Shown here piece after piece: positions 9,648 to 63,629 of a stretch of 64,000 nt of DNA (position 1 is the stretch's first letter; each line of letters begins with the position of its first letter). The translations under genes and the position numbers were made by a program. The stretch spans positions 20,215 to 84,214 of the forward strand of contig JBQTIG010000081.1 in the NCBI GenBank assembly GCA_052388375.1, in the 5' to 3' direction. Origin of the DNA: Planctomycetaceae bacterium (lineage in GTDB: Bacteria; Planctomycetota; PLA2). Under the pieces are notes generated by a model, which saw only the letters and a program-made list of their open reading frames with translations, was not told the origin of the DNA and did not search any database.

Positions 9648-10463
9648 CTACAGGGGCCCGGAGATGCCGCCGTCCTTGCGCACGCGCCAGAAGTGGACCG
9701 CCATGAGCGTGATCGCGATGACCGGGACGAACACGCAGTGGAGCACGTAGAAGCGCAGGAGCGCGTTCTCGCCCACGAACCTCCCTCCCAGGAGAGCGAA
9801 CCGCACGTCCGACCCCGCCGTGACCAGGGGGATCCCGTCCAGCTGGAAGAGCATCGCACCTGGCCCCTCGTGGCCCTGGAAGGGCGTCGCGCGCGCCATG
9901 TTGGAGCCGACCGTCACCGCCCAGATGGCCAACTGGTCCCAGGGGAGCAGATAGCCGGTGAAGGACAAGAGCAGGGTCAGCACGAGGAGGAGCACGCCGA
10001 TCACCCAGTTGAACTCCCGCGGCGGCTTGTAGGAGCCGGTCATGAAGACCCGGAACATGTGGAGCCAGACCGTGAGCACCATGGCGTGCGCGCCCCAACG
10101 GTGGAGCTCGCGCATGTAGCCGAGCGGGATGCTCTCGCGCAGCTCCTGGATGTTGTTGTAGGCCTCGGCGGCGACCGGCTTGTAATAGAACATGAGGAGG
10201 ATGCCGGTCACCGTCTCCACGAGGAAGAGGAAGAAGGTGACCCCTCCCATGCACCACGTGAAGGAGAGCGCAATGCCGCTCTTCCGGACGCGCACCGGAT
10301 GCAGGTGAAGGAAGACGTTGCTCAGCACGGCGAGCGCGCGGTTGCGCTGCGTGTCGGGATAGCCGTGCCGGAAGATCGACTTCCAGAACTGCGTCTGCCG
10401 GAGCTTTCCGAAGAGGCTCACCTTCGGTTTGCCGGGCTTGGGGGATTGGGTTGCCGTCGCCAT
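9648..10463 (-). CDS. Cytochrome b6-like protein (N-terminal half of cytochrome b, heme bL/bH ligands)
   Basis: 271 aa with four TM helices and conserved His pairs (LHLHPVRV..., [18 protein letters not shown]..., VLHCVFVP). ATG at cat 10461-10463. Confidence 0.8.
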
Positions 10464-50757: not shown

Positions 50758-51927
50758 TCAGTGCTTCGGGTCCTCATTGTGAGGGGGGCGGGGGGGCGAA
50801 GCAAGCATCGCATCCAGGAGCGCCTCTCCATACTCCCGCACCCGGAAGGGTTCCAGGACCTCCCCCAATTCCGCCAGCGTGCGGCAGCCGCGCTGGGCAA
50901 CCTCGAAGAGCGCTTCGTTGCGCGCGACGACGAAGGGCTCCACGCCCCGCTCGGTGGCCGCCCGGGTGCGCCACGTCCTCAGCCGGTCGAAGCGGTTCTT
51001 CACCTCGCGGGAGGGCGGCTCCGACCGCTCGCGCCGCACGCGGGCGAGGGTGAGCGGCCCCGCGGCGAGGGCGGCGTCCACGATCCCGATGAAGCGACGG
51101 CCGTGCAGGTCCCAGACGCGGCGCGGGACGCCGCGCACCGGACCCTTGGCGCGGGCGCGCGCGACCGAGAGGAGCGCGGAGTCGTCGGCGATCCGGTAGG
51201 GGGCGCGGTTGGTCCGCTCCGCCTCCTTCTCGCGCCAGAAATAGAGGTCGCGCCAGATGCGCAGCTGCACGGGGTCGAGTTCCCGGGTGGCGGCGAGGCG
51301 GCGGAACGCCTCCGGATCGGGAGGCTCGGGGGTCCACTCCCGCGCCGCGATGCGCGCGCATTCCGAGGTCACCTCCTCGACGCGTCCCGCCTCGACGACC
51401 CGGCGGTGCAGCTCCTCGGCGAGGCTGAGCAGGTGGCGCGTGTCGGCCAGCGCGTATTCGAGCTGCGCGGGGTCGAGGGGACGGCGGCTCCAGTCGCTGC
51501 GCTGCAGCTTCTTGTCGAGCTTGAGACCAAATCGCGCCTCGAGGATGCCCGCCAGGGAGTAGGGCTTGAGCCCCAGGGCGAAGCAGGCCACCTGGGTGTC
51601 GAAGAGTCGTCCGATCCGCCAGCCGAACTGGTGCTTCATCAGGATCACGTCGTTTTCGGCGGCGTGGATGACGACCTCCCGCGCCGGGTCGGCCAGGAGC
51701 CGTCCCAGGGGCGCGAGATCGAGGCGGGCCAAAGGGTCCACGAGGAATTCCGCCTGCGGCGTCGAGAACTGCAGGAGGCAGACTCGCGCGCGATAGGCGA
51801 AATAGGCGTCGCTCTCCGTGTCGAGGGCCAACGCGGGAGCGCGCGCCAGCATTTCGACCGCGGCTGCAAGCGCGGCGTCGTTGTCGATGAGTCCGATCAA
51901 GCGCGCGATTATAGGGGGCCGAGGCAA
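50758..51927 (-). CDS. rnd: Ribonuclease D (3'-5' exonuclease plus HRDC domain)
   Basis: [23 protein letters not shown]... DEDDy exonuclease motifs followed by an HRDC-like region. Confidence 0.7.
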
Positions 51928-52159
51928 CCCGAGAACTTCCTCGCCTCCGCGAGGCGGGATCGGGGCGTCCTCGGCCTCGAAAGAGATCTCCCGCGAGCGA
52001 AGCCAGCTCCTACCCCGAAGCCCTGACCCTCCCGAAAACTCGTCCGGACCCGGATTCTCGCCCTGCAGGCCACTTTCGCGAGTCTATCCCCGACGCGCTG
52101 CTTGCGCCAGCCCGCGAGCTAGGAACCCTCCGGCATGCGCTTCCTCCTCCAGCTCTTGC

Positions 52160-52410
52160 GCCTCGCGCGCGCCCTCGCCGCCGACCGCGCGCGCCTCTTC
52201 TTCACCCTGCCGACGCTGACGTTCTAGGCGCTCTTCGCGTGCGTCGTCCTGTCGCACGACCGGCGCCGCATCCTCCACGTCAACGTCACGAGGCACCCGA
52301 CCGCCGAGTGGACCGCGCAGCAGGTCACCGAGGCGTTCCCCGGCGACGCCCCGGTGCCGCGCTACATCCACTGCGACCGCGACTCCGTCTACGGCGACGT
52401 CTTCCGCTCG
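52160..52410 (+). pseudogene. Remnant of an rve (DDE integrase-core) type transposase with an in-frame TAG and truncated at both ends
   Basis: Translation gives ...ADRARLFFTLPTLTF*ALFACVVLSHDRRRILHVNVTRHPTAEWTAQQVTEAFPGDAPVPRYIHCDRDSVYGDVFRS. This is collinear with the conserved FFTVDTVTLRRLYVLFFIELxTRRVHLAGVTAHPT...RDRDxKYG block of integrase-core transposases. The TAG at about 52225 replaces the conserved Arg codon. Confidence 0.6.
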
Positions 52411-52711
52411 CCCCGCGCGCGTTCCGGAACCGCCGTTCCCGGTCATCGTCGCGCCCGCGCGCGAAGCCCCCGAGTCCGCCACGGTCCGCCCGCGCCGCGC
52501 GCGAGCGCCCCGCGGCGCTTCCGCGGAAGCGCCGCACCACCTCCGAATCTTCGCCCTCAGCCCGCTCCTGACCCAGGGATCACCCCTGCGGCCCGCGCGG
52601 ACGGGCTTGGCCGGCCAGTCCTTCCACCAGCCGGATGCGTTACGATTCCTTACTCTGCCTGCCGGGGCAGCCGACGCGATAAGATCGGGGCCACCAAGCG
52701 AAATCTCCCGC

Positions 52712-53266
52712 ATGGCAGGCCCGATCACGCAGGTCCTCCTCGACGTGCAGCGCGGCACCCCCGGCGCGCGCGATGAGCTGTTTCGGCTCTCGTACGAGGC
52801 GCTGAAGCGGCTCGCCAACGCGCAGATGCGCGACCAGCCGCAGGGGCACACGCTCCAGCCGACCGCGCTCGTCAACGAGGCATGCCTCAGGCTCCTCGGG
52901 AGCAGCGCGGAGGTCTACCGTGACCGCGGCGTCTTCTTCTCGGTCGCGTCGAAGGCGATGAGGTCGATCCTCGTCGACTGGGCGCGCGCGAAGGGCGCGC
53001 TCAAGCGGGGCGGTCCGCGCGCGCAGGTCACCTGGCGCGAGGACCTCGCGACCTGGGCGCCGTCGGCCGAGGAGGTGCTGTCGGTCCACGACGCGCTCGA
53101 GAAGCTCGAGGGGATCGACCCGTCGCTCGCGAGGGTCGTGGACCTCCGCTTCTTCGCCGGCCTCTCGGCGGCGGAGGCCGCGTGCGCCATGGAGGTGAGC
53201 GAGCGCCACCTCTTCTCGCTCTGGGAGCACGCGCGGGCCTGGCTCTTCCGGGAGCTGCACGCGTGA
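52712..53266 (+). CDS. ECF-type RNA polymerase sigma factor of the Ser/Thr-kinase-associated group (TIGR02999-like)
   Basis: MAGPITQVLLDVQRGTPGARDELFRLSYEALKRLA...LQPTALVNEACLRL... C-terminal region-4 HTH. Its stop TGA (53264-53266) overlaps the GTG of the kinase gene. Confidence 0.7.
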   Translation: MAGPITQVLLDVQRGTPGARDELFRLSYEALKRLANAQMRDQPQGHTLQPTALVNEACLRLLGSSAEVYRDRGVFFSVASKAMRSILVDWARAKGALKRGGPRAQVTWREDLATWAPSAEEVLSVHDALEKLEGIDPSLARVVDLRFFAGLSAAEAACAMEVSERHLFSLWEHARAWLFRELHA

Positions 53267-56200
53267 ACGCGGAGCGGGTGCGGGAGGTGATGGAGGGGGC
53301 GCTCGCACGCGACACCGACGAGATCCCGCGCTTTCTCGACGAGAGCTGCGGTCCGGACGCAGAGCTCCGGGCCGACGTGGAGTCGCTGCTCGCGGCGCGC
53401 AAGCGGATGGGCCGCTACCTCGAAATGCCCGCCGCAGCGGCGCTCGCGCGCGACGCGGAGCTCGCCCCCGGCCAGCGCGTCGGCGGCTACGAGATCCTCG
53501 GCGTGATCGGCCGCGGCGGCAGCGGCGTCGTCTACCGCGCGCGCCAGAAGAGCCCCGATCGCGTCGTCGCCCTCAAGACGTTGCGGCTGCGGCTCGGAGG
53601 CGACGAGGCACGCTTCCTCGATGAGACGCAGACGCTGGCCCGCTTCCGGCATCCGGCGATCGCGCACATCTACGAGGCGGGGGTGCACGAGGGCGTGCCC
53701 TTCTTCTCGATGGAATTCGTGGAGGGCCCTGGAACCATCGTGGACTACGCGCTGGCGCACGGGCTCGACGCGCGAGCGCGGCTCGAGCTCCTCGCGCGGG
53801 TCGCGGACGGTGTCCACTACGGCCACCAGCGCGGCGTCATCCACTGCGACCTCAAACCGGGGAACATCCTCGTCGGCGACGACGGGGCGCCGCGGATCGT
53901 GGACTTCGGGATTGCGCGCACCGGCGTCATGAACGAGGGCGACACCGAGCTCAGGGGCACGCTCCGGTACATGAGCCCGGAGCAGTGCCAGGGCGGCGCG
54001 GAGCCTGTGGACGTGCGCTCCGACGTCTACGCGCTCGGCGTCGTCCTCTACGAGCTGCTCACCGGCCGCCTGCCGATCGACGTCTCCTCGGGGTCGATCA
54101 CGCAAGCGCGCCGGCGGATCCTCGGCGAGGCGCCCGTCCGCATCGAGAGCGTCGCGCCGCGGTTCAGGGGCGACGTCGCCGCGATCGTGCACAAGGCGCT
54201 TGAGAAGGACCGCGAACGGCGCTACGCGTCGGCTGCGGCGCTGGCGGACGATCTCCGCCGCCACCTGACCGACCGGGTGGTCGAGGCCGCCCCCGCGGGC
54301 GTCTGGGTGCAGGTCCGGAAGTTCGCGAGGCGCCAGCGCCTCGCCTTCCTCTCGTTCGCGACCCTGGGCGTCGTCCTCGCAGCGGCGGCCGCCGTGAGCA
54401 GCTGGCTCGCAGTCGAGTACCGCGACCAGCGGACCGCGGCGCAGTATGAGGCGTACCTCGCCAACGTCGCGGCCGCCGCGGCGGCGCTCGAGGGAGGCGA
54501 CGTCGGCGAGGCCACGCTGCGCCTCGACCACGCGCGCGAGGCCTTTCGGGGATGGGAGTGGCACCACCTCCGAAGCAGGCTCGACACGAGCGTGGCGACG
54601 GTCGAGTGGCCCGGCGTCGGGATCGGGGGGGGCGCGCTCAGCGCGGACGGGCGGACGCTCGTGGCCGCGGCCGGAGCCCTTCGCGCGTGGGAGCTGGCCG
54701 CCGAGCGCGTGTTGTTCACCGTCCCGAGGGAGCCGGGGCGCCGCGCCGACGTCGTCGCCCTCTCGCCGGACGGCCAGCGGATCGTCACGGGGTACGGCAG
54801 CGGGCGGGTCGATGTCCGAAGCGCGCGGACCGGGGAGGTCCTCGCGGTCGCGGGGCGACACGAGAAGCAGGTGAGCATGGTGTCGTTCCACCCCGACGGA
54901 ACGCGCTTCGCTTCGGCGGCGTACGACGGCACGGTCCGGATTTCCGACGCTGCGACCGGCGCCTTGCTCGCCACGATTCGCGCCCATCCCGGCGTGCTGC
55001 TCGCGGTCCGTTACGACCGGACGGGCACGCGGATCGCGACCGGCGGGGACGACGGCCGCGCGCGCGTGTTCGCGGCCGACTCGGGCGAGCCGCTCGCGTT
55101 ACTCTCCGGACACGAGAGCCACGTCGAGGACGTTGCCTTCAGTCCGGACGGCAAGAGGCTCGTGTCGGCGTCGATGGACCAGACGCTCCGGCTGTGGGAC
55201 ATCGCCTCCTCTACGATGCTCGCGGTGCGCCCGGCGCACAAGAGCGGGGTCAAGGGCGTTGCGTGGAGCCCGGACGGCCGGACGATCGCGAGCTGCTCCA
55301 TCGACAGCACCGTCCGCCTCTGGAACGCGGACGACCTCTCGGCGATCGCGACCTATCGGGGACACCGGGCGCGCGTCTACCAGGTGGAGTACGCGACGGA
55401 CGGCGCGCGGATCGCGTCGTTTTCGGGGGACGGGACCGTCAGGCTCTGGGATGTCGCCAGGAGTGACGATGTCCCTTGGCTCAAGAGCCGCGGAGGCCGC
55501 GTCGGCGCCCTCGCGTTCTCGTCCGACGGCGAGCTCGTGGCTCTTGCCGCAGCGAACGGATCGATCGAGCTCTGGAGCGCCTCCTCGGGCGCGCTGGTCC
55601 GGACGCTCGCAGGCGGCGCGCCCGCGTCAGCCGTTCGGTTCCTGGACGGGTCGCGCCGCGTCGTGGCCATCCTTCCGCGCAAGGTCGCCTCCTGGACCGT
55701 CGAGAACGGGGCGGCCGAGCCCCAGCGCGCCGTGTCCGTCGACCTCCACGGCGCCCTGATCGCGGCGGACGGACGAATCGTCGCCTGGCACGAGGGCGAC
55801 GTGCTGGAGCTCGACGCCGCGACAGGCGCGGTGCTCTCGCGCTGGAACGCGCACTCGGAACCCGTACGCGCCGCGGCCCTTCATGAGGGTCGGGGCTGGC
55901 TCGTGACCGTCTCCCTCTCGGGCGAGGTCCGGCTCTGGCACCGGTCGGGGGGAGATCCGGTCGCGATGGTTTCGGTGCCCGACGCGAGAGCGCCCACGCT
56001 CGCATTCCATCCGGACGGAGAGCTGGTCGTCGTCGGGTTCGCGAACGGCACTGCAACGCTTCTCTCCGTCCCCGGCCTCGCGACCAAGGCCACGTTCGTC
56101 ACGGGCTCGCAGCTCCAGGTCGTGGAGTTCTCCCCCGACGGCAGCCGCCTCGCTGCTTGCTCTGGGGACGGGACGTTCCAGCTCTGGGACCCCTCGACCG

Positions 56201-56337
56201 CGCGGCAGGCGGTCGCGCTCCGCGGCCACCGCTACGCCGTGAGCGCCGTCGCGTGGAGCCCGGACGGGCGCTCCATCGCGACGGCGGAGAACTTCACCGA
56301 CATCGTGCGGTTCTGGCGGTCGGAACCGGCGCGCTGA
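53263..56337 (+). CDS. Ser/Thr protein kinase with a TM segment and a C-terminal WD40 beta-propeller (about 12+ repeats)
   Basis: GTG 53263, or ATG 53290. Kinase motifs GRGGSGVVYRA, VALK, HCDLKPGNIL, DFGIA. A TM helix (LAFLSFATLGVVLAAAAAVSSWLAV) then WD40 repeats (SPDG.R..TG..DG.VR.W). Confidence 0.85.
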   Translation: MNAERVREVMEGALARDTDEIPRFLDESCGPDAELRADVESLLAARKRMGRYLEMPAAAALARDAELAPGQRVGGYEILGVIGRGGSGVVYRARQKSPDRVVALKTLRLRLGGDEARFLDETQTLARFRHPAIAHIYEAGVHEGVPFFSMEFVEGPGTIVDYALAHGLDARARLELLARVADGVHYGHQRGVIHCDLKPGNILVGDDGAPRIVDFGIARTGVMNEGDTELRGTLRYMSPEQCQGGAEPVDVRSDVYALGVVLYELLTGRLPIDVSSGSITQARRRILGEAPVRIESVAPRFRGDVAAIVHKALEKDRERRYASAAALADDLRRHLTDRVVEAAPAGVWVQVRKFARRQRLAFLSFATLGVVLAAAAAVSSWLAVEYRDQRTAAQYEAYLANVAAAAAALEGGDVGEATLRLDHAREAFRGWEWHHLRSRLDTSVATVEWPGVGIGGGALSADGRTLVAAAGALRAWELAAERVLFTVPREPGRRADVVALSPDGQRIVTGYGSGRVDVRSARTGEVLAVAGRHEKQVSMVSFHPDGTRFASAAYDGTVRISDAATGALLATIRAHPGVLLAVRYDRTGTRIATGGDDGRARVFAADSGEPLALLSGHESHVEDVAFSPDGKRLVSASMDQTLRLWDIASSTMLAVRPAHKSGVKGVAWSPDGRTIASCSIDSTVRLWNADDLSAIATYRGHRARVYQVEYATDGARIASFSGDGTVRLWDVARSDDVPWLKSRGGRVGALAFSSDGELVALAAANGSIELWSASSGALVRTLAGGAPASAVRFLDGSRRVVAILPRKVASWTVENGAAEPQRAVSVDLHGALIAADGRIVAWHEGDVLELDAATGAVLSRWNAHSEPVRAAALHEGRGWLVTVSLSGEVRLWHRSGGDPVAMVSVPDARAPTLAFHPDGELVVVGFANGTATLLSVPGLATKATFVTGSQLQVVEFSPDGSRLAACSGDGTFQLWDPSTARQAVALRGHRYAVSAVAWSPDGRSIATAENFTDIVRFWRSEPAR

Positions 56338-56340
56338 AGG

Positions 56341-56369
56341 CCGGGGCCGCCGACGCCCGGCGGCCCCGG
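56341..56369. terminator. GC hairpin (ccggggccgccg-acgc-ccggcggccccgg) between convergent kinase and beta-propeller lipoprotein genes
   Basis: Near-perfect 12-bp inverted repeat seen in the sequence. Confidence 0.5.
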
Positions 56370-56374
56370 TGGAT

Positions 56375-56585
56375 CTCTGCGCTACGGGAGCCGCCCGAAC
56401 CCCCAGTCCGGCTCGGTGCTGCTGCCGTCCGGCTGGTTCGGGATCTCCGCGGCGTTGCTGTTGGTCCCGGTGGCATCGACGAGCCAGAGTCGGGCCGGAC
56501 TCAACTCGTTGTTCTGGCGCGCGAAGACGATGCGGTCCGACATCGGCGACCACGACGGCGTGAGGTCGGACTGGTGCGCCCCGCC
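56375..56585. repeat. About 200-bp direct repeat, copy A (3' end of the beta-propeller lipoprotein gene)
   Basis: About 85% identical to 60392-60595 in the same orientation. The copies are 4020 bp apart. Confidence 0.7.
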
Positions 56586-59500
56586 GGCGGTCACGTTCGC
56601 AGGGCCGCTGCCCGCGCTGTCCGTCCTGACGATCCGCAACCGCCCGACGCTCCCGTAGCGCTGGAGCACGAACCCCACGGGCCCCCAGTCGACCGACCAG
56701 TCGAGCCCTAAACTCTCGCCGATGATCGTCGGCGCCGTCGCGCCGTCCGCGGGCACTACGTACTTCGCCCCGGAATTGCAATACGCGATCCTCGCCCCGT
56801 CCGGAGACCATGAGAGGTGCTCGATATCCCGGTGCGGGAGAGTGCTGATCTCGACCGGCGGCGTCCCCGGCGGCATGCCGAGGTCGAAGATCAAGATCCG
56901 GTCGAAGTACCCCGCGTCCCCTACCGCGCACGCCACCTTGCGCAGGCCCGCGACCGGCGACCACGCCGGGTCGCGTGCCGAGCGCTGGCCGGTGAAGTTG
57001 GTCAGCGGCGTCACGGGGGGCGGCGCCGGATCGGCGCCGTTGAAGGGCATCACCATGAGGTCGAAGTGCGTGCCGCCGCCCTCGCTGTTGCTGACGAACG
57101 CGATCTGTGCACGGTCCGGCGACCAGGCGGGGTCCCAGTCCTCCCGAACGTTGACCGTCAGCTGCCGCCGGCCGCCGCCCGCGGCGTCGATGACCCAGAT
57201 CTCCGTGTCCTCGCCGAGGGCAGGCGGCTTGTTCGAGAAGACGATGAGGTCCGCCGGCTCGGCCGGAGGCGGGCCAGGGGGCGGCGGCTCCTCGGTATCG
57301 GGAGGGGGCGTCGTGAATCCGAGGCACTGGCGGGCGACAACCGTGTCGGTCACCGGCAACGACGGCGTCACGACCTCGATGATGTCCTCGAAGGGAGGCG
57401 CCTCCGGCGCGGTCGCGGAGGGCGCCTGTACCTCGACATCCACCTCGAACGGCAAAGTCTCCCCGCCCTCGACGCGCTCGAGCTCGGCCTGACAGCGGCC
57501 GTCAGCGGCGATGTGACCATCGGGTCCGACACGGAGGACCCAGGCGTCCCCGCGCACCTCCACGGAATCGGAGCGTCCGACCAGCAGCGCGCCGCCGGGG
57601 ACCGCCCGGAGACCGGACAGCCTCTCGTCCAGCATACCTCCGTAGGCCTGCGCCCAATCCCAGCCTCCCGTCGCGCTGACGCGCATGAGAATCCAGTCTT
57701 GGCCGCTGGGGCGCATGAGAGGCTTGTTTTCGCCGGTGACCGGGTCCATGCCGAAGTCGTTCTCGATCGTGGCCGCGACATAGACATCGCCCTCGGAGCC
57801 TCGGACGACACGATACGAGCCTTCGCCGATCACCCAAGGCGCGTCCCACCTCCGCATCGACGCGTGGCGAATCGCCCCGTCCGGCGCCATGTCGACGACG
57901 AACACATGAGGCGTCTCGCTGAACGCCCCGCCGTTGCTTCGCACCGCTCCTGCGAACAGCGCGCCTTGGCGATCGATTGTGCAGACAGCCGCGACCGGGC
58001 TGACCTCGGAACCTGGCGCGGGACCGGCAACGGACCCAAAGAACCGCACACGATACGACGAACGCGCGCTTCCGTCCTGGTCGAACGCCTGTACCTCGAA
58101 CCCGGAGTCGACGGCGCTCACGGTGGCGAACTCCGCCGGCGCGGTCGCGCCGAGCGCGAAGAGCTTGGTCTGCCAGGAGCCGGGAACGGCAATCCGCCAT
58201 GCAGCCTCGCCGTTGCCGAGAATGCGAGTCACCAGGACCGTCGCGTTGTCCTTCCCATGCGCCAGCAGGACACTCGCATCGGCAAGCACGGCCGACGAGG
58301 CGGGGGGTCGTCGGGCCTCGGCGGTCCTCACGAGCCTGGACCAGACGGGGAGGCCCGTGACGTCGAGGCGCGCGATCCACGGCCCGAACTGTTCGTAGTC
58401 GAACTCCCAGGATCCGATGAGCACGTAGCCGTCGTGGTGCTTTCGCGCCGGGTCAATGGCGAGCAGGTGAACATCATGGACCCTCTCGCGATCAGGACCG
58501 TCTGCCGAATGGAACGCGTTGGCATCCCAGATCATGGCCAGCGCGGCGTCGAGGCGGCGGACGCGGCCGCTGCGGGACCAGATGCACGTCTCTCCGTCCG
58601 CATCCCGAGTGACGCGGTCACCGTCGCCGAGGTCGAGAATCTCCTCCCCAGCCGCCTCCCAGTTGAGACGCACCCTTCTGACGCCCGTCTCGCGGCCAGG
58701 CCCGTAGAGCTCGGTGTACTCGACATCCCCATCCATGTGCGAAGTCACCGCCACCCGAACGTCTAGGTAAACGACGCGGTTGAACCCGTTCGCAGGGGCG
58801 AGTGGCCGCGCCTGGAGGCGCCCACCGTCTTGGGGATCGAACCGTATGAGCCAGTTCGTCGCAGAGCGGAAGTCCCACAGGACTCCAACGAACTCGCAAG
58901 ACGCGCCCGCCGGGCACGGCGCGATGCCCGCGCCTACGACCGAGTACCTGCCGAGGTCGCCGAACTCTGAGTACCAGAGCTCCCGACCATCCTGCTCGTA
59001 GAGCGCCGCAAAGACCTCGTCTCCGCTCCCCTCCGGGAAGGTCGAACTGTAGGTCCTCCCCAGCAGGAAGAGCCGGCCCAGCTCGTTGACCGCCCCGGCC
59101 ACCGCGTCGAAGTTACCCTCGAAGGTATGCCACCGGACGACTCCGCCGGAGTCGATCCGCCCGAAGCGCGTGCTCTCTTCCACCGCTGTCAGCCCAACGT
59201 TCGAAAACGTCCCGCGGGCCCAGAAGTAGACGTCCGAGTTCCCGCCGACGGCGACACCCAGCTTCACGGGCCGGTCATGCAGGCTGGGGTACTCGTGCAC
59301 GTATTCACGTATGTCGTCCACGATCTGGCGCTGCCACAAGACGTCGCCGTTCGGCGCCAGCCTGGCTACCCAAGGCACACGCACGGTGTACGCGGCCGCT
59401 ACCCTGGGGTCGGGATCGATGTCGATGCGCGCGTGCGAGACGGCCGCGAGCACGAGGCCCCCGTCGGGGGTGGACTGGGCGTCCTCAAGGAAGTCGTCCG

Positions 59501-59996
59501 GCTTCTCATCGGCAAAGTACAGATGCTCACCGGCCACACTGTCGAGGCCATACCGGCGCTGCCACGCGATTCGGCCGGCCCCGTCGATGTAGGTCACGAT
59601 GAGATCCACGCTGCTGGAACCTCCCTCGTGGGCTATTGCGCTCTTGTCCGGAGGTTCCGGCAACAACGTAGAGACCACAAAGGCGGCCCCCAGGGATGCC
59701 GGCACCACCACGGTGTCCTCCTGCGACCCGCCGGATCGTCCGAGGACGCGCTCCCATAGCGGGTCGCCGTAGGCGTCCAGGCCGACCACCCACGCGTCCA
59801 TGTTGCTCGTGCCCACGGCATCGCGCGTGGCTGCCACGACGTGGCTTCCGTCCGGAAGCACCTCGCCTGAGGCGGCGGCGTCCCGGAGCAGGGCGCCGTA
59901 CGACTTGGCCCACGTCGGCTCGCTGCTGGACCCCTCGGCGCATCCTTGCAGGAACGCCAAGGCGGCGCAGGCGACGAAGATGGTTGACCGCCCCAT
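56382..59996 (-). CDS. Giant lipoprotein with beta-propeller repeats and a TolB-like (PD40) C-terminal region
   Basis: 1204 aa. Signal peptide plus lipobox (AALAFLQGC). Repeated beta-strand-rich units. The C-terminus has WSPDG/WSPM...RIVF repeats typical of PD40/TolB-like propellers. Confidence 0.6.
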   Translation of the reverse strand: MGRSTIFVACAALAFLQGCAEGSSSEPTWAKSYGALLRDAAASGEVLPDGSHVVAATRDAVGTSNMDAWVVGLDAYGDPLWERVLGRSGGSQEDTVVVPASLGAAFVVSTLLPEPPDKSAIAHEGGSSSVDLIVTYIDGAGRIAWQRRYGLDSVAGEHLYFADEKPDDFLEDAQSTPDGGLVLAAVSHARIDIDPDPRVAAAYTVRVPWVARLAPNGDVLWQRQIVDDIREYVHEYPSLHDRPVKLGVAVGGNSDVYFWARGTFSNVGLTAVEESTRFGRIDSGGVVRWHTFEGNFDAVAGAVNELGRLFLLGRTYSSTFPEGSGDEVFAALYEQDGRELWYSEFGDLGRYSVVGAGIAPCPAGASCEFVGVLWDFRSATNWLIRFDPQDGGRLQARPLAPANGFNRVVYLDVRVAVTSHMDGDVEYTELYGPGRETGVRRVRLNWEAAGEEILDLGDGDRVTRDADGETCIWSRSGRVRRLDAALAMIWDANAFHSADGPDRERVHDVHLLAIDPARKHHDGYVLIGSWEFDYEQFGPWIARLDVTGLPVWSRLVRTAEARRPPASSAVLADASVLLAHGKDNATVLVTRILGNGEAAWRIAVPGSWQTKLFALGATAPAEFATVSAVDSGFEVQAFDQDGSARSSYRVRFFGSVAGPAPGSEVSPVAAVCTIDRQGALFAGAVRSNGGAFSETPHVFVVDMAPDGAIRHASMRRWDAPWVIGEGSYRVVRGSEGDVYVAATIENDFGMDPVTGENKPLMRPSGQDWILMRVSATGGWDWAQAYGGMLDERLSGLRAVPGGALLVGRSDSVEVRGDAWVLRVGPDGHIAADGRCQAELERVEGGETLPFEVDVEVQAPSATAPEAPPFEDIIEVVTPSLPVTDTVVARQCLGFTTPPPDTEEPPPPGPPPAEPADLIVFSNKPPALGEDTEIWVIDAAGGGRRQLTVNVREDWDPAWSPDRAQIAFVSNSEGGGTHFDLMVMPFNGADPAPPPVTPLTNFTGQRSARDPAWSPVAGLRKVACAVGDAGYFDRILIFDLGMPPGTPPVEISTLPHRDIEHLSWSPDGARIAYCNSGAKYVVPADGATAPTIIGESLGLDWSVDWGPVGFVLQRYGSVGRLRIVRTDSAGSGPANVTAGGAHQSDLTPSWSPMSDRIVFARQNNELSPARLWLVDATGTNSNAAEIPNQPDGSSTEPDWGFGRLP

Positions 59997-60391
59997 GATC
60001 GACCTCCAGTGCGGGTCAGAACTCGAGCACCGCGTTCAATGACCACAGACGGGTTCTGCGCTTCAGGACTGCAGGAGTTCCGAGGCGTCTCGCGAGTTCC
60101 CTTCTGGGCGGCCCCGAGCGGGGCCAGGGGCGGGTCCACGCCGGGCAACGCGGGGCGCCTCCTACGCCCAGCGAACTTGCCCCCGGCCCGCGACCGCCGG
60201 CCCTCCCGGTGCGCGCCGTAGCGCTGGGCTGGGCGCACCGGCCGGCAGCCTTGAGCCAGGGGCAGGCGAGACACGCAAGCACGAAGACAAGATCCCAGAG
60301 AACCGGTGTGTCGACCCGCTAGAACAGCATGTAACGGTTGCTCGTCCTCAAGGCCGGCGGCTGCCTTGGGCGCACTGCATCTGTCTTCGTG

Positions 60392-60595
60392 CTAGGGGAG
60401 CGGCGGTAACCCCCAGTCCGGCTCGGTGTTGCTGCCCGTGGGCTGGTTCGGGATCTCCACAGCGTTGCTGTTGGTCCCGGTGGCATGGACAGGCCATGGC
60501 CGGCCCGGGGTCATCTCGTTGTCCTGGCGCACGAAGACGATGCGGTCCGGGGACGGCGACCACGACCGCGTGAGGTCGGACTGGTGCGCCCCGCC
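60392..60595 (-). pseudogene. Duplicated 3'-terminal fragment of the beta-propeller lipoprotein gene (direct repeat copy B)
   Basis: It encodes ...GGAHQSDLTRSWSPSPDRIVFVRQDNEMTPGRPWPVHATGTNSNAVEIPNQPTGSNTEPDWGLPPLP. The parent C-terminus reads ...GGAHQSDLTPSWSPMSDRIVFARQNNELSPARLWLVDATGTNSNAAEIPNQPDGSSTEPDWGFGRLP. The upstream part of ORF 60392..60898 is unrelated sequence. Confidence 0.6.
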
Positions 60596-60789
60596 ACGAC
60601 TCTCGACGCGCTCAAGGCCACGGCTGACGTTTGTGGATAGGCAGGGATTCTCTTCTTGTTGTCGCTGTCGAACGCCAGGGGGAGGAGCGCGAGGCGGTAG
60701 GGGCCGGCGGCGGCGGCCCGATCGCACACGGCGTCGAGGAGCGCCTGGAGGTCTTGCGCTGCGCGTTCCACGACCTCGATCCCGTCCAG

Positions 60790-60882
60790 CCTCCCCGAGG
60801 ACCAGGCCAATGAGGTGCTGGAGCTGATCGACTCCCTGGAGCAGTTCGACGACGTGCAGCAGGTCTTTCACGCCCTGGCGTG
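60790..60882 (+). pseudogene. 3'-terminal remnant of a YebC/PmpR-family gene
   Basis: + frame: ...SLPEDQANEVLELIDSLEQFDDVQQVFHALA*. It matches the YebC C-terminus (E. coli ...[23 protein letters not shown]...). There is no upstream body. Confidence 0.45.
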
Positions 60883-60917
60883 AGAGCGGGGGAGGCACAG
60901 GAAGGGGGCGGGGACCG

Positions 60918-63629
60918 CTACTTCCTCTCGGCGTCCAGAAACGTCAGCCGGTTCGTGGGCGCCGGCCGCACTTCAAAGCCGTCCAGCCGGAATCCCGTCC
61001 ACTCCTCGGCGCGCCGGAGGCAATCCCCCTTGGGCCAGTAGAGGGGGGCGAGGTTCCAGAGGCGGATCGTCTTGTCCGAAGACCTCGACGCGATCCGGCT
61101 CCCGTCCGGGCTGAACGCGACCGACATCACCGCGTCTGCGTGCCCCTCCAGCCGCGCGACCTCCTTCCCCAAGGAGGCGTCCCAGAGGCGGACAGTCTTG
61201 TCCCAAGACCCCGACGCGAACCGGCTCCCGTCCGGGCTGAACGCGAGGCACGTCACGCCGACCCCGCACGGTGATGTCCAACTGCTACGTGTTGGAGCCG
61301 AACCGATTGCAGCGATCAGCCCGCCCCTCGCTTGCGGGTCATCCTCGATATCGCAAGCGCTCGCGAACAGCAAGGACCTTCCGGCTGGGGATTCCGTTCC
61401 GGCTGCCCGGAAGCCGTATGCCGTCGCTAGATGGTGCTCCGCCTCCGCGAGCGCGCGCGTCTTGTCCTCGGCCAGCCGCGTCGCCCTGTCCCGCTCCCGC
61501 CCCTCCGATTCCGCCAGCCGCGTCGCCCGATCCTCGGCCGCCCGCGCCGCGTTCCGCTGCTTGCGGAGCGAATCCAGGAAGAGCAGCGTCCCCGCCACGA
61601 TCACCACCACCGCCGCCGCCGACGTGATCGCCACCGCCGCGTGCCGTTGCACCCAGAGGCGCAACAGATACCCCAGGCTCGGCGGCCGCGCCGACACCGG
61701 GTTGCCCTGCGCGAATCGCCCCAGATCCTCCGCCAGCGCCGCCGCGCTCGCATACCGGCGCCCAGGGTCCCGCTCCATCGCCTTCCGGATCACCGCGTCC
61801 AGGTCCTTGGGCACGGTCCGCTCCACCTTCCGCGGCGCCGCCGGCGACTCCCGCAGCACCTTCGCCAGGAGCGCCTCCGTCGTCTCCGCCTCGTACGGCG
61901 CCCGACCGGTCGCCAGCTCGTACAGCGTCGCCCCGAGCCCATAAACGTCCGCCCGCGCGTCCACCCTCGTCACCGCGTGCGTCACCTGCTCCGGCGCCGC
62001 GTACTTCAGCGTCCCGAGCACCGCCGCCGGATTGGTCAGCGACGCCTCCCCGGCCACCTTCGCCAGCCCCAGGTCCATCACCACCACCCGCCCGTCCGGC
62101 GTCACCATCAGGTTGGCCGGCTTGATGTCCCGGTGGATCACCCCGCGCTCGTGGAGGTGCTGCAATCCCAGCGCGGCGTCGTGAGAGACCTCCGCGAGCC
62201 GCCGGTACGGATCTCCGGGAGGATGCGGAGGACGGGGGCGGGGCACGGCCGGCAGGCCTCCAAAGGCCTCCGGCATCTCCCTCCTCTTGCGCTCCGACAC
62301 CGTCGAGACCGCGCTCTCGAGGTCCCGGCTCGACCCCTCCTTCAGCGTCTCCGCGACCTCCCTGAGGTCGCACCCCTCCACGTACTCCATCGCGTACCAG
62401 AACAGCCCCTCCGTCCGTCCCGACGCCAGGATCCGCACCACATGAGGGTGGTCGCTGCGCGCCAGCGCCCGCACCTCCCGCGCAAACCGCGCCGCCGCCA
62501 CGTCGTCGCTCGAGAGCGCTGGCGGCATCATCTTCAGCGCCACCAGCCGCCCAAGGCTCCGCTGTCGCGCCAGATAGACCGTCCCCATCCCCCCTTCGCC
62601 CAGCTTCGCCAGGAGGTCGAACTCCCCAAACCGCCGCGCCGTCGCCGGCGCCGCCTCCGCCGCAGGCTCCGGCTGGTCCGACAGGCTCTGCGCCTGGAGC
62701 GCCTTGAGCTTGTCCGCCGTGACCTCCGCGCCCAGCAGCCGCCCCAGGATCCGGCGGTGGTCCTCCAAGAGCTCCGGCGCCGGGGAGGTCTCCCCCGTCA
62801 CGTAGTCCAGATACTCCACCTTCCGCTCGATCTGCGACCGATTCAGGAAGAGCACCCCCTCCTCCGGACCGCCGGAGGCGCACACGAGCAGCGGGTGCAG
62901 GTCGAGCCAGGCCTCGCCCCGCTTCAGGTAGAGGTGGCCCGCCCGGAGCTTCTCCCCGCCTTCCCTCAGCGTCGTCCGCAGCGCGTCGGTGCCCGTGAGG
63001 TCCCATAGCTCGATGGTGCGGGGCCCCGAGCCGGTCTCCCGCACCTCCGCCACGTAGGTCAGCACCGTCCGGCCGAGGAGCGCGACTTTGTCGAGCAGCT
63101 CCACCGCGGCCGCCAGCAGCGCCTCGCCCATCTCCGCGTAGTACCCCTCGTCGCGCACCGCGCCGTGGCCGAGCACCTGATTCCGATAGGCCGGGATGCG
63201 ATTGAGGAAGTCGAGGACCTTGACCTTCCCTCCGGCGCGCTCGCCCATCGCCTTCAGGCAGGCACCGATCGCGGGGAGGTCGTCGCGCGGCTGGAGCAGC
63301 AGCGCCGAGACGCCCGCGATCTCCGGGAACGGGTGCGGCTCGAGCCCTGCCGTCGCAGCTGCAACCTCGCGCAGGAACTCCACCCAGTGCCCCAGGGAGG
63401 GAAGGGCGAGGTTGGCCAGCCGCCTGTCGAGCGCCTCGTCGCGCGCGCCGCCCGCCAGATAGGCCGCGATCTGCGCCGCACCCGCCGCCTTGATGGTGGA
63501 CTCGATCAGGTAGAAGGCGTTGTGGTGCCGGTCGCTGCGCGCCTTGGCGTTGAAGGCCCGCCGGTACAGCCGCGCCAGCGGCAGCGGCAGCCGGTCGCGC
63601 AGATCGGTGCGGAAGCCCTCGATCGCCAT
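60918..63629 (-). CDS. Ser/Thr protein kinase with an about 330-aa N-terminal domain of unknown function and a short C-terminal WD40 segment
   Basis: 903 aa. Kinase motifs LGEGGMGTVYLA, VALK, HRDIKPANLM, DLGLA, APE. A TM helix (AAVAITSAAAVVVIVAGTLLFL). Two WD40 repeats at the C-terminus. I did not recognise the N-terminal domain (MAIEGFRTDLRDRLPLPLARLYRRAFNAKARSDRHHNAFYLIESTIKAAG...). Confidence 0.8.
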   Translation of the reverse strand: MAIEGFRTDLRDRLPLPLARLYRRAFNAKARSDRHHNAFYLIESTIKAAGAAQIAAYLAGGARDEALDRRLANLALPSLGHWVEFLREVAAATAGLEPHPFPEIAGVSALLLQPRDDLPAIGACLKAMGERAGGKVKVLDFLNRIPAYRNQVLGHGAVRDEGYYAEMGEALLAAAVELLDKVALLGRTVLTYVAEVRETGSGPRTIELWDLTGTDALRTTLREGGEKLRAGHLYLKRGEAWLDLHPLLVCASGGPEEGVLFLNRSQIERKVEYLDYVTGETSPAPELLEDHRRILGRLLGAEVTADKLKALQAQSLSDQPEPAAEAAPATARRFGEFDLLAKLGEGGMGTVYLARQRSLGRLVALKMMPPALSSDDVAAARFAREVRALARSDHPHVVRILASGRTEGLFWYAMEYVEGCDLREVAETLKEGSSRDLESAVSTVSERKRREMPEAFGGLPAVPRPRPPHPPGDPYRRLAEVSHDAALGLQHLHERGVIHRDIKPANLMVTPDGRVVVMDLGLAKVAGEASLTNPAAVLGTLKYAAPEQVTHAVTRVDARADVYGLGATLYELATGRAPYEAETTEALLAKVLRESPAAPRKVERTVPKDLDAVIRKAMERDPGRRYASAAALAEDLGRFAQGNPVSARPPSLGYLLRLWVQRHAAVAITSAAAVVVIVAGTLLFLDSLRKQRNAARAAEDRATRLAESEGRERDRATRLAEDKTRALAEAEHHLATAYGFRAAGTESPAGRSLLFASACDIEDDPQARGGLIAAIGSAPTRSSWTSPCGVGVTCLAFSPDGSRFASGSWDKTVRLWDASLGKEVARLEGHADAVMSVAFSPDGSRIASRSSDKTIRLWNLAPLYWPKGDCLRRAEEWTGFRLDGFEVRPAPTNRLTFLDAERK
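61076..61255. repeat. Near-identical tandem DNA repeat encoding consecutive WD40 units inside the kinase gene
   Basis: The units cgacgcgatccggctcccgtccgggctgaacgcgac and cgacgcgaaccggctcccgtccgggctgaacgcgag lie about 120 bp apart. They encode AFSPDGSRIASRSSDKTIRLW and AFSPDGSRFASGSWDKTVRLW. Confidence 0.6.

What the first reader, a model, noticed from the sequence alone, without database searches (positions are those of the whole stretch)
52712..56337. ECF sigma factor translationally coupled (GTGA overlap) to a Ser/Thr kinase-WD40 protein
This sigma-factor group (ALVNEA(C/Y)LRL signature) is known to pair with Ser/Thr kinases in place of anti-sigma factors. Here the overlap at 53263-53266 enforces 1:1 co-expression with a 1024-aa kinase whose periplasmic or cytoplasmic WD40 propeller is the likely sensing or scaffolding domain. 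It is a candidate phospho-regulated sigma system controlling the neighbouring giant lipoprotein.
Basis: partly seen in the sequence, partly recalled or inferred. Interest (0 to 1): 0.5.

Follow-up and report, generated by a model that had tools for sequence, protein, structure and literature searches.

The report
Kinase-activated sigma factor gene pair
This is an ordinary member of a known bacterial switch, in which a membrane Ser/Thr kinase probably turns on its neighbouring ECF43-type sigma factor by phosphorylating it. The one new lead is a small uncatalogued N-terminal domain on the kinase that always travels with this kind of sigma factor.

Summary
A 184-aa ECF sigma factor gene (52712-53266, +) ends in TGA inside the GTG start of a 1024-aa Ser/Thr kinase gene (53263-56337, +), giving the overlap GTGA at 53263-53266.

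- **Sigma factor.** It belongs to TIGR02999/PF07638, the same subfamily model as the experimentally studied ECF43 sigma EcfK (40% identical). It lacks the acidic sigma2.2 motif and has the phospho-acceptor Thr51 (QPTA).
- **Kinase.** Its closest solved relative is PknS, the kinase that activates EcfK. It has one membrane helix followed by 14 WD40 blades (two propellers), which must lie outside the cytoplasm.
- **Gene neighbourhood.** In 62 of 80 related loci a kinase follows the sigma gene. The 4-nt overlap is the commonest junction (23 of 64), but one close relative lacks it, so "enforces 1:1" is overstated.
- **Regulon claim.** Nothing supports it. The lipoprotein gene is convergent, sits beyond a strong hairpin, and shares no upstream motif with the sigma gene.
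- **Verdict.** This is a new member of a known kind and is already annotated generically in GenBank.
- **Most novel lead.** The kinase's first ~65 residues form a three-helix "leader" with no Pfam or NCBIfam model. It is homologous to the uncharacterised N-terminus of PknS, is found in about 67,700 protein clusters, and is tightly linked to these sigma genes. It may be a sigma-docking module.

The parts
52712..53266 (+). ECF sigma factor gene (184 aa), ECF43-type (TIGR02999 / PF07638)
   Evidence: The exact protein is public as 'MAG: ECF-type sigma factor [Planctomycetaceae bacterium]'. It is 40% identical to a reconstructed EcfK.
52847..52879 (+). Sigma2.2 motif H46-T-L-Q-P-T51-A-L-V-N-E56. 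Thr51 (codon 52862-52864) is the predicted phospho-acceptor, and the acidic DxxD residues are absent.
   Evidence: The motif is invariant in 35 homologues. Position 51 is T in 198 and S in 4 of 202 sequences, and position 52 is A in 198. It aligns to EcfK LQAT51ELVHEA and to the DVPDVVQE region of E. coli sigmaE. The phospho-site is from PMC13147305 and PMC8999054.
53030..53032 (+). Thr107 codon in the sigma2-sigma4 linker, a possible second phospho-site (equivalent to the EcfK T104/T106 cluster)
   Evidence: The column holds T, S, D or E in 142 of 202 sequences. The BLASTP alignment places it at EcfK VT104LT106. The published frequencies for the T106 column (T 43%, S 12%) are in Table S6 of PMC13147305. 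This is inference only.
53250..53254 (+). GGGAG Shine-Dalgarno-like element inside the sigma gene, 8 nt before the kinase GTG
   Evidence: Read directly from the sequence.
53263..53266 (+). GTGA: kinase start codon overlapping the sigma stop codon
53263..56337 (+). Receptor Ser/Thr kinase gene (1024 aa): leader, Hanks kinase domain, one membrane helix, double WD40 propeller
53263..53457 (+). N-terminal 'leader' (aa 1-65): three helices (2-14, 18-29, 33-49) followed by a flexible linker. It is an uncatalogued domain linked to the sigma gene.
   Evidence: The AlphaFold model is. There is no Pfam or NCBIfam match. The leader profile matches PknS residues 4-69 at E=2e-10. It finds 67,677 cluster representatives. 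Linkage to sigma genes is shown.
53488..54282 (+). Hanks-type kinase domain (aa 76-340). The catalytic loop is HCDLKPGN at aa 194-201 (nt 53842-53865), a non-RD variant.
   Evidence: Pkinase E=1.7e-41. K105, D196, N201 and D214 are invariant columns. HCD is shared with orthologues P0123 and P0124. The best PDB hit is PknS, entry 9EED.
54337..54420 (+). Single transmembrane helix (aa ~359-386), with a basic cytoplasmic flank RKFARRQR
   Evidence: Hydropathy scan. One long helix spans aa 359-410 in the model. 48 of 51 complete related kinases have one such segment.
54595..56319 (+). Extracytoplasmic WD40 region (aa 445-1019): 55 strands, about 14 blades, i.e. two 7-bladed propellers
   Evidence: WD40 E=2e-71. 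Region pLDDT is mostly above 90.
56340..56370 (.). 13-bp GC-rich hairpin (5-nt loop) between the convergent stop codons of the kinase and lipoprotein genes; a likely end of the operon's transcript
   Evidence: -46.3 kcal/mol for the 71 nt folded, z = -2.5. It has no U-tract, so a terminator function is inferred.

Best explanation
The two genes form one operon encoding an ECF43-type sigma factor and its cognate receptor Ser/Thr kinase.

The sigma factor is probably made in an inactive form, because region 2.2 lacks the acidic residues that normally contact the RNA polymerase beta' clamp. The kinase sits in the inner membrane. Its leader and catalytic domain face the cytoplasm, and two WD40 propellers face the periplasm. 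An unknown extracytoplasmic cue, probably a protein or envelope ligand bound by the propellers, activates the kinase. The kinase then phosphorylates Thr51, and perhaps linker Thr107. The added negative charge lets the sigma factor bind core polymerase and transcribe an unknown regulon.

The three-helix leader at the kinase N-terminus most likely recruits the cognate sigma factor.

- **Shown here:** gene structure, family membership, motif content, topology, conserved gene order, and the leader-sigma linkage.
- **Inferred from EcfP/PknT and EcfK/PknS:** phosphorylation, activation and the polymerase contact.
- **Unknown:** the signal and the regulon.
For: **Sigma family.** TIGR02999 at 186.5 bits against a cutoff of 126; PF07638 at 158 bits. 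EcfK, reconstructed from peptides in Table S4 of PMC13147305, scores 168.9 bits on the same model and is 40% identical, with T51 aligned to T51.

**Sigma2.2.** Q49-P-T51-A52; positions 49 and 52 are uncharged in about 198 of 202 homologues, and position 51 is T or S in all 202. Literature: phospho-Thr at this position activates EcfP and EcfK, and the ECF43 consensus is QTTA (PMC13147305, PMC8999054, PMC8103513).

**Gene order.** In 62 of 80 genome loci a kinase domain follows on the same strand, 54 of them within about 420 nt.

**Kinase.**
- All catalytic residues are present.
- The best solved relative is PknS(1-364), entry 9EED, at E=5.6e-44, ahead of PknB. The alignment runs into the leader.
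- It has one membrane helix and 14 WD40 blades.
- Sensor domains of 50 sigma-adjacent kinases: TPR in 26, PD40 in 17, WD40 in 7.

**Leader-sigma linkage.**
- 75 of 80 sigma loci carry a leader gene.
- The leader stays next to the sigma gene even when a TM-sensor-TM insert separates it from the kinase domain, or when the kinase domain is missing.
- Five of 5 leader-bearing WD40 kinases have this sigma directly upstream, against 0 of 4 leaderless ones.
- Leader divergence tracks sigma divergence (partial r 0.45, 0 of 500 permutations) more than the kinase domain does (0.23).
- Against the kinase next to an 88%-identical sigma (L081/P0158), identity is 85% in the leader, 64% in the kinase domain and 29% in the WD40 region.
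Against: - No experiment exists on this protein pair. Phosphorylation, the signal and the regulon are all inferred.
- The catalytic loop is HCD rather than HRD. This is unique among 55 sigma-adjacent kinases, although orthologues share it. Regulation of the kinase may therefore differ from PknS.
- The motif is QPTA, not the published ECF43 consensus QTTA.
- The formal ECF Hub group assignment could not be run. Other kinase-linked planctomycetal groups exist (ECF59, 61, 62, 217; PMC8999054).
- The docking role of the leader rests on linkage and co-variation only. The leader has no significant structural match to anything informative.
- The mosaic identity pattern is partly explained by recombination, because synonymous codon identity also falls from 78% to 52%.
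Confidence: 0.8

Rival explanations
1. The kinase leader is an anti-sigma-like domain. In this view the kinase holds the sigma factor at the membrane, and the signal (with or without phosphorylation) releases it. The system would then combine sequestration with phospho-activation rather than lack an anti-sigma factor.
For: - The leader is an autonomous N-terminal cytoplasmic module encoded right after the sigma gene, in the position and topology of classical anti-sigma factors (leader, membrane helix, periplasmic domain). Variants exist without a kinase domain (L074, L010) or with the kinase domain far downstream (L002, L075, L006).
- Leader and sigma co-vary.
Against: - Published work reports EcfP as intrinsically inactive without any inhibitor (PMC8999054).
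- The kinase-less variants are rare (about 3 of 80) and may be decayed genes.
Confidence: 0.12
2. The pair is co-transcribed but the kinase does not act on the sigma factor. Either the non-RD (HCD) kinase serves other substrates or acts mainly as a scaffold, or the sigma factor is controlled at the level of transcription or stability.
For: - The HCD catalytic loop is atypical.
- A TAAGAT / TAGAAT-like box upstream of the sigma gene is the only conserved upstream element among relatives, which is compatible with housekeeping transcription.
- Hanks kinases often have many substrates.
Against: - All catalytic residues are intact.
- Gene order and the phospho-acceptor Thr are conserved across phyla.
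- Direct phosphorylation is shown for two homologous pairs (PMC13147305, PMC8999054).
- Non-RD variants recur in 13 of 95 leader-bearing kinases, which argues for a tolerated functional variant.
Confidence: 0.05
3. One reading: the sigma factor's main target is the adjacent 1204-aa lipoprotein gene (56382-59996, minus strand).
For: - EcfK controls neighbouring type VI secretion genes (PMC6653060).
- A homologous PD40 protein is the convergent neighbour in close relatives L081-L083.
- PD40 and WD40 propellers are both periplasmic.
Against: - The gene is convergent, on the opposite strand, and separated by a strong hairpin.
- Shared 8-mers between the two upstream regions number 6, against 8.35 expected.
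- There is no such neighbour in 80 more distant loci.
- Shared gene order among near relatives is expected anyway.
- The lipoprotein lies downstream of a different kinase gene on its own strand.
Confidence: 0.1

Closest known systems
EcfK / PknS of Xanthomonas citri (ECF43; PMC13147305)
   Same: - The sigma factors fall in the same NCBIfam subfamily, are 40% identical, and have Thr51 at the same position, plus a Thr in the linker.
- PknS is the best solved match to the kinase.
- Both kinases have the N-terminal helical leader, one membrane helix and an extracytoplasmic repeat domain.
- In both, the sigma gene is immediately upstream of the kinase gene.
   Different: - The sensor is a double WD40 propeller here, against three TPRs in PknS.
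- The sigma motif is QPTA here and QATE in EcfK, which keeps one acidic residue.
- The kinase has HCD here and HRD in PknS.
- The regulon is unknown here, whereas EcfK controls a type VI secretion system.
- The organism is a Planctomycetota MAG rather than a gammaproteobacterium.
EcfP (VP0055) / PknT of Vibrio parahaemolyticus (ECF43; Iyer et al. 2020, as summarised in PMC8999054)
   Same: The sigma factor lacks every acidic residue of the DAED motif. It has a Thr at the third position (STTA there, QPTA here), whose phosphorylation is reported to enable binding to polymerase.
   Different: The signal (polymyxin) and the regulon of EcfP are not transferable.
Other kinase-associated ECF groups of Planctomycetes (ECF59, ECF61, ECF62, ECF217; PMC7826278, PMC8999054)
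   Same: They occur in the same phylum, have a co-encoded Ser/Thr kinase and have no anti-sigma factor.
   Different: These groups are reported to retain a DAED-like acidic motif or to use Ser. The window's sigma factor has the acid-free Thr motif and the TIGR02999 signature of ECF43. Their sequences were not compared directly.
Classical ECF sigma / anti-sigma pairs (e.g. RpoE / RseA)
   Same: A two-gene operon, often with a start/stop overlap. The partner is a single-pass membrane protein with an N-terminal cytoplasmic helical module and a periplasmic sensor.
   Different: The partner carries a Hanks kinase domain, and the sigma factor lacks the acidic core-binding motif. The leader shows no detectable similarity to anti-sigma domains.

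Membership tests
ECF43 sigma factors (phospho-activated) | ECF architecture (sigma2 + sigma4 only) and the family sequence signature | tested here: met
   PF07638 at 158.3 bits and TIGR02999 at 186.5 bits against a cutoff of 126.15. The protein is 184 aa.
ECF43 sigma factors (phospho-activated) | Homology to an experimentally characterised member | tested here: met
   EcfK, rebuilt from published peptides with about 94% coverage, scores 168.9 bits on TIGR02999. It is 40% identical over 162 aa, E=7e-22.
ECF43 sigma factors (phospho-activated) | The acidic DAED/DxxD motif of sigma2.2 is replaced by uncharged residues, with a conserved Thr at the phospho-site | tested here: met
   Q49-P-T51-A52. 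The criterion is taken from PMC13147305 and PMC8999054.
ECF43 sigma factors (phospho-activated) | A co-encoded Hanks-type Ser/Thr kinase | tested here: met
   The overlapping downstream gene has Pkinase at E=1.7e-41. The arrangement is conserved in 62 of 80 related loci.
ECF43 sigma factors (phospho-activated) | No co-encoded anti-sigma factor | tested here: inconclusive
   No neighbour has an anti-sigma Pfam domain. However, the kinase leader is a sigma-linked module of unknown function, so a hidden anti-sigma role is not excluded.
ECF43 sigma factors (phospho-activated) | Assignment by the ECF Hub group HMMs (Casas-Pastor 2021) | not testable with these tools
   The group models and supplements are not held.
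ECF43 sigma factors (phospho-activated) | Kinase-dependent phosphorylation of the sigma2.2 Thr, and phospho-dependent binding to polymerase | not testable with these tools
   This requires biochemistry.
PknS/PknT-type cognate receptor kinases | Complete Hanks catalytic motifs | tested here: met
   The G-loop, K105, D196, N201, DFG (D214) and SPE are present. The HRD arginine is Cys195, making this a non-RD variant.
PknS/PknT-type cognate receptor kinases | An N-terminal ~80-aa helical segment before the kinase domain | tested here: met
   The leader profile hits PknS residues 4-69 at E=2.2e-10. Three helices are predicted, as reported for PknS.
PknS/PknT-type cognate receptor kinases | A single membrane helix and an extracytoplasmic sensor domain | tested here: met
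   The sensor type (WD40) differs from PknS (TPR) but recurs in 7 of 50 sigma-adjacent kinases.
Translationally coupled gene pair | The stop codon of gene 1 overlaps the start codon of gene 2, with a ribosome-binding site inside gene 1 | tested here: met
   GTGA at 53263-53266 and GGGAG at 53250-53254. It is the commonest junction in the family. Actual coupling and stoichiometry were not tested.

The most novel reading that the evidence does not exclude
The first ~65 residues of the kinase are an undescribed, very widespread three-helix domain. It finds about 67,700 cluster representatives, has no Pfam or NCBIfam model, and equals the unexplained N-terminal 83 residues of PknS. The proposal is that this domain is the specificity determinant of ECF43-type signalling: it docks the cognate sigma factor onto its kinase. 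That would explain how genomes carrying dozens of paralogous sigma/kinase pairs avoid cross-talk. The domain can be detached from the kinase domain, duplicated (about 10 tandem copies in P0241), or kept without a kinase.
Probability: 0.45. Interest if true: 0.55.

Novelty: new member of a known kind. Interest (0 to 1): 0.27.

Why it matters
The locus itself adds one more ECF43-type sigma/kinase pair from an uncultured planctomycete, and this says little that is new. Its value is as a clean example of three things.

- **Reach of the mechanism.** The phospho-activated sigma mechanism, worked out in two gammaproteobacteria (Vibrio parahaemolyticus and Xanthomonas citri), appears to extend unchanged in its sequence hallmarks to Planctomycetota, Acidobacteriota, Verrucomicrobiota and Gemmatimonadota.
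- **Interchangeable sensors.** The extracytoplasmic sensor varies (TPR, PD40, WD40) and turns over quickly, while the sigma factor, the leader and the N-lobe of the kinase stay fixed.
- **A testable hypothesis.** The uncharacterised N-terminal segment of PknS belongs to a very large domain family whose genomic behaviour points to sigma recognition. That gives a directly testable explanation of how substrate specificity is achieved in this signalling class.

Tried and rejected
- **Leader-only homologue search.** A word-indexed search with the 75-aa leader found nothing. A profile search of the representative library then succeeded.
- **Contig look-up.** The window's own sigma protein is not on record in the contig index. 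Relatives were used instead.
- **Sigma against solved structures.** The single sequence gave no hits. The profile matched only the sigma4 region.
- **Promoters and terminators.** The sigma70-type promoter and terminator scan of 51900-60950 found no promoter and one chance-level terminator. Shared k-mers between the sigma and lipoprotein upstream regions were at chance level. No ECF43 promoter consensus was found in the papers held, so the regulon could not be searched.
- **Papers not held.** Jogler 2012, Iyer 2020 and the Casas-Pastor supplements.
- **Start codons.** The longer ORF starts (TTG 52607 for sigma, GTG 53182 for the kinase) were rejected because conservation begins at ATG 52712 and GTG 53263.
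- **Opposite-strand ORFs.** ORFs such as 52915-54987 were treated as high-GC artefacts.


Full report
**Observation.** The window is 70% G+C. On the plus strand, ATG 52712 opens a 184-codon ORF that ends with TGA at 53264-53266. GTG 53263 opens a 1024-codon ORF that ends at 56337. The four bases GTGA at 53263-53266 therefore hold the kinase start and the sigma stop, and GGGAG lies 8 nt upstream. Both start codons are supported by comparison.
- Similarity to close relatives begins exactly at the sigma ATG.
- The kinase N-terminus V-N-A-E-R-V-R-E-V aligns with the M-T-P-E-R-W-Q-x-V consensus that opens the homologous kinases.
- The public record of this same MAG contig (90,576 bp, 'Planctomycetaceae bacterium') carries identical 184-aa and 1024-aa products.
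- The relative L084 has the same GTGA plus a 9-nt in-frame insertion just downstream.
- The relative L081 (sigma 88% identical) has a 35-nt insertion that puts the overlapping GTG out of frame. It uses its own ATG 23 nt after the sigma stop, behind GGGGAG.

**How typical the overlap is.** I took 64 junctions between a sigma gene of this family and the gene that follows it. Of these, 23 have the 4-nt overlap (the most frequent class), 31 overlap in some way, 14 have gaps of 1-25 nt and 19 have larger gaps. The overlap is a family habit and a sign of an operon with probable coupled translation. It is not conserved strictly enough, nor mechanistically sufficient, to 'enforce 1:1 co-expression'.

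**The sigma factor.** It matches PF07638 (158 bits) and the NCBIfam subfamily TIGR02999 (186.5 bits, cutoff 126). More than 7,300 homologues were found. In 202 aligned homologues:
- H46-T-L-Q-x-T51-A-L-V is nearly invariant.
- Position 51 is Thr in 198 and Ser in 4.
- Positions 49 and 52 are Q and A in 198 each.

The literature describes exactly this for group ECF43. The DAED/DxxD motif is replaced (consensus QTTA; STTA in EcfP; QATE in EcfK). The Thr at the third position is phosphorylated by the neighbouring Hanks kinase, which restores the negative charge needed to bind the beta' subunit (PMC13147305; PMC8999054; PMC8103513; PMC7826278).

To test membership directly, I rebuilt about 94% of EcfK from the tryptic peptides in the supplement of PMC13147305. 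The rebuilt protein scores 168.9 bits on the same TIGR02999 model. It is 40% identical to the window's sigma factor, and LQAT51ELVHEA aligns to LQPT51ALVNEA.

A second conserved Thr, T107 in the linker, occupies a column that is T, S, D or E in 142 of 202 sequences. It falls on the T104/T106 cluster of EcfK. This is inference only.

**The kinase.**
- Pfam places the kinase domain at aa 76-328, followed by WD40 repeats.
- All catalytic residues are present. The HRD arginine is Cys (HCD), the only such case among 55 sigma-adjacent kinases. Orthologues P0123 and P0124 share it, so it is not a sequencing error.
- The best match among all solved structures is 9EED (E=5.6e-44, ahead of PknB). This entry is PknS(1-364), the cognate kinase of EcfK, and the alignment runs upstream into the N-terminal segment.
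- An AlphaFold2 model built on 52 homologues (mean pLDDT 90) shows three short helices (2-14, 18-29, 33-49), a disordered linker, the kinase fold, one long helix (359-410) containing the only hydrophobic segment (359-386), and 55 beta strands from 445 to 1019. That corresponds to 14 blades, or two seven-bladed propellers.
- The kinase domain must be cytoplasmic, so the propellers are extracytoplasmic.

**Conservation of the pair.**
- A scan of one genome per species returned 80 loci from Planctomycetota, Acidobacteriota, Verrucomicrobiota, Gemmatimonadota and others.
- In 62 of them a kinase domain follows on the same strand, 54 within about 420 nt of the sigma stop. Several others have a kinase nearby in another orientation.
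- 48 of 51 complete kinases have one membrane segment after the kinase domain.
- Sensor regions of 50 sigma-adjacent kinases, the window's included, are TPR in 26, PD40 in 17 and WD40 in 7.
- Of the 120 closest full-length relatives of the window's kinase, all carrying kinase and WD40-type propeller domains and mostly from Planctomycetota, 95 carry the leader.

The architecture seen here is therefore a recurrent variant, not a novelty.

**The leader.** The first ~65 residues of the kinase form a conserved module (consensus R-x7-F-x2-A-L-E-x5-R-x2-F-L-x2-A-C-x2-D-x2-L-R-x-E-V-E-S-L-L).
- It has no match in Pfam or NCBIfam.
- Its profile hits one solved chain only, PknS residues 4-69 (E=2.2e-10). 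The PknS authors describe that segment as conserved in Xanthomonadaceae, invisible in the crystal, predicted helical and of unknown role.
- A profile search of 1.84 billion cluster representatives finds 67,677 proteins at E≤1e-3, nearly always at residue 1. Some carry tandem copies, with about ten in P0241.

Its genomic behaviour ties it to the sigma gene rather than to the catalytic domain.
- 75 of 80 sigma loci contain a leader gene, and 78 of the 87 kinase ORFs in the loci and the window have a leader.
- In L002, L075 and L006 the leader stays directly after the sigma gene, while membrane helices (with a periplasmic sensor loop in L002 and L075) separate it from the kinase domain. In L074 and L010 it occurs without a kinase domain.
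- Starting from kinases instead, 5 of 5 leader-bearing WD40 kinases have this sigma directly upstream and 0 of 4 leaderless ones do. In L091 the gene caller had missed the sigma gene, which tblastn recovered.
- Across 55 pairs, leader distances correlate with sigma distances (r 0.49; partial 0.45 given the kinase domain; 0 of 500 permutations reach it). This is stronger than for the kinase domain (0.31; partial 0.23).

The leader shows no significant fold match to anything informative, anti-sigma domains included. I read it as a probable sigma-docking module. An anti-sigma-like tether is the main alternative.

**Mosaic evolution.** Identity between the window and L081/P0158, by region, is given below. 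Synonymous codon identity falls from 78% in the sigma gene to 52% in the WD40 region, about the level expected by chance at this GC3.

| Region | Identity |
|---|---|
| Sigma factor | 88% |
| Leader | 85% |
| Kinase N-lobe | 85% |
| Whole kinase domain | 64% |
| WD40 region | 29-30% |

The sensor half has therefore been exchanged or has diverged far faster than the sigma-leader block. This fits interchangeable sensors on a fixed signalling core.

**The lipoprotein claim.** Gene 56382-59996 is on the minus strand and convergent with the kinase gene. It encodes a protein with a lipobox (LQGC) and a C-terminal PD40/TolB-like propeller.
- A perfect 13-bp GC hairpin (56340-56370) lies between the two stop codons.
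- On its own strand the gene lies downstream of a second, leaderless kinase-WD40 gene (60918-63629), after a 921-nt gap that contains a remnant copy of the lipoprotein's own C-terminus.
- The regions upstream of the sigma and lipoprotein genes share no k-mers beyond chance.
- A homologous convergent neighbour occurs in near relatives but not in the 80 distant loci.
- No ECF43 promoter consensus was available in the papers held, so the regulon could not be predicted.

The claim is unsupported but not excluded.

**Verdict.** This is an ECF43-type, phospho-activated sigma factor with its cognate receptor kinase, in one operon with a typical start/stop overlap. It is a new member of a known kind and is already annotated generically in GenBank. 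Interest is low to moderate. The one lead worth following is the uncatalogued sigma-linked leader domain.

Noticed in passing
window 60393-60600 (minus strand): A ~66-codon remnant, ending in a stop, that nearly copies the C-terminus of the lipoprotein gene 56382-59996 (GGAHQSDLT.SWSP..DRIVF.RQ.NE...ATGTNSNA.EIPNQP.GS.TEPDWG). It lies in the 921-nt gap upstream of that gene. It is probably a truncated paralogue left by a local rearrangement.
   Followed up: partly
window 60918-63629 (minus strand): A second Ser/Thr kinase gene (903 aa) with a ~335-aa N-terminal domain of unknown type, a membrane segment and only about 2 WD40 repeats. It has no leader and no adjacent sigma gene, and it sits upstream of the lipoprotein gene on the same strand.
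   Followed up: partly
window 53842-53865 (kinase aa 194-201): The catalytic loop reads HCDLKPGN instead of HRD. Orthologues P0123 and P0124 share this. Non-RD variants (HCD, HGD, HLD) occur in 13 of 95 leader-bearing WD40 kinases and in 0 of 25 leaderless ones.
   Followed up: partly
window 52712-56337 compared with L081 10001-13667: Mosaic conservation: sigma factor 88%, leader 85%, kinase domain 64% and WD40 region 29% identical. Synonymous codon identity falls from 78% to 52%. The sensor half appears to have been swapped or to evolve very fast.
   Followed up: partly
P0241 (1156 aa); P0242, P0246, P0254: Some proteins carry tandem copies of the leader domain, with about ten before the kinase domain in P0241. 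Many representative hits are short leader-only fragments.
   Followed up: no
L074 6623-8578; L010 6582-7265; L002 6396-8900; L075 5760-8318; L006 1631-3499: Variant partners encoded directly after the sigma gene: leader plus WD40 without a kinase domain or membrane helix (L074); a truncated leader fused to TPR (L010); leader, membrane helix, periplasmic loop, membrane helix, kinase (L002, L075); and leader, four membrane helices, kinase (L006).
   Followed up: partly
window 56340-56370: A perfect 13-bp GC-rich hairpin between the convergent stop codons of the kinase and lipoprotein genes. It has no U-tract and is a candidate bidirectional transcript end.
   Followed up: partly
window 52679-52690; L084 ~9975-9990; L081 ~9965-9980: The only element conserved upstream of the sigma gene among close relatives is a GATAAGATCGGG / GATAGAATCGGG / GCTAGAATCG box about 25-40 nt before the ATG. 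It resembles a housekeeping -10 element. Relatives also have a 64-65-aa ORF upstream that the window lacks, and their upstream genes differ from the window's RNase D-like, superoxide dismutase and aminotransferase genes.
   Followed up: no
L091 1430-1963: The public gene call missed a sigma gene of this family and called a 160-aa ORF on the opposite strand instead. This is a reminder that high-GC gene calls hide some sigma/kinase pairs.
   Followed up: yes
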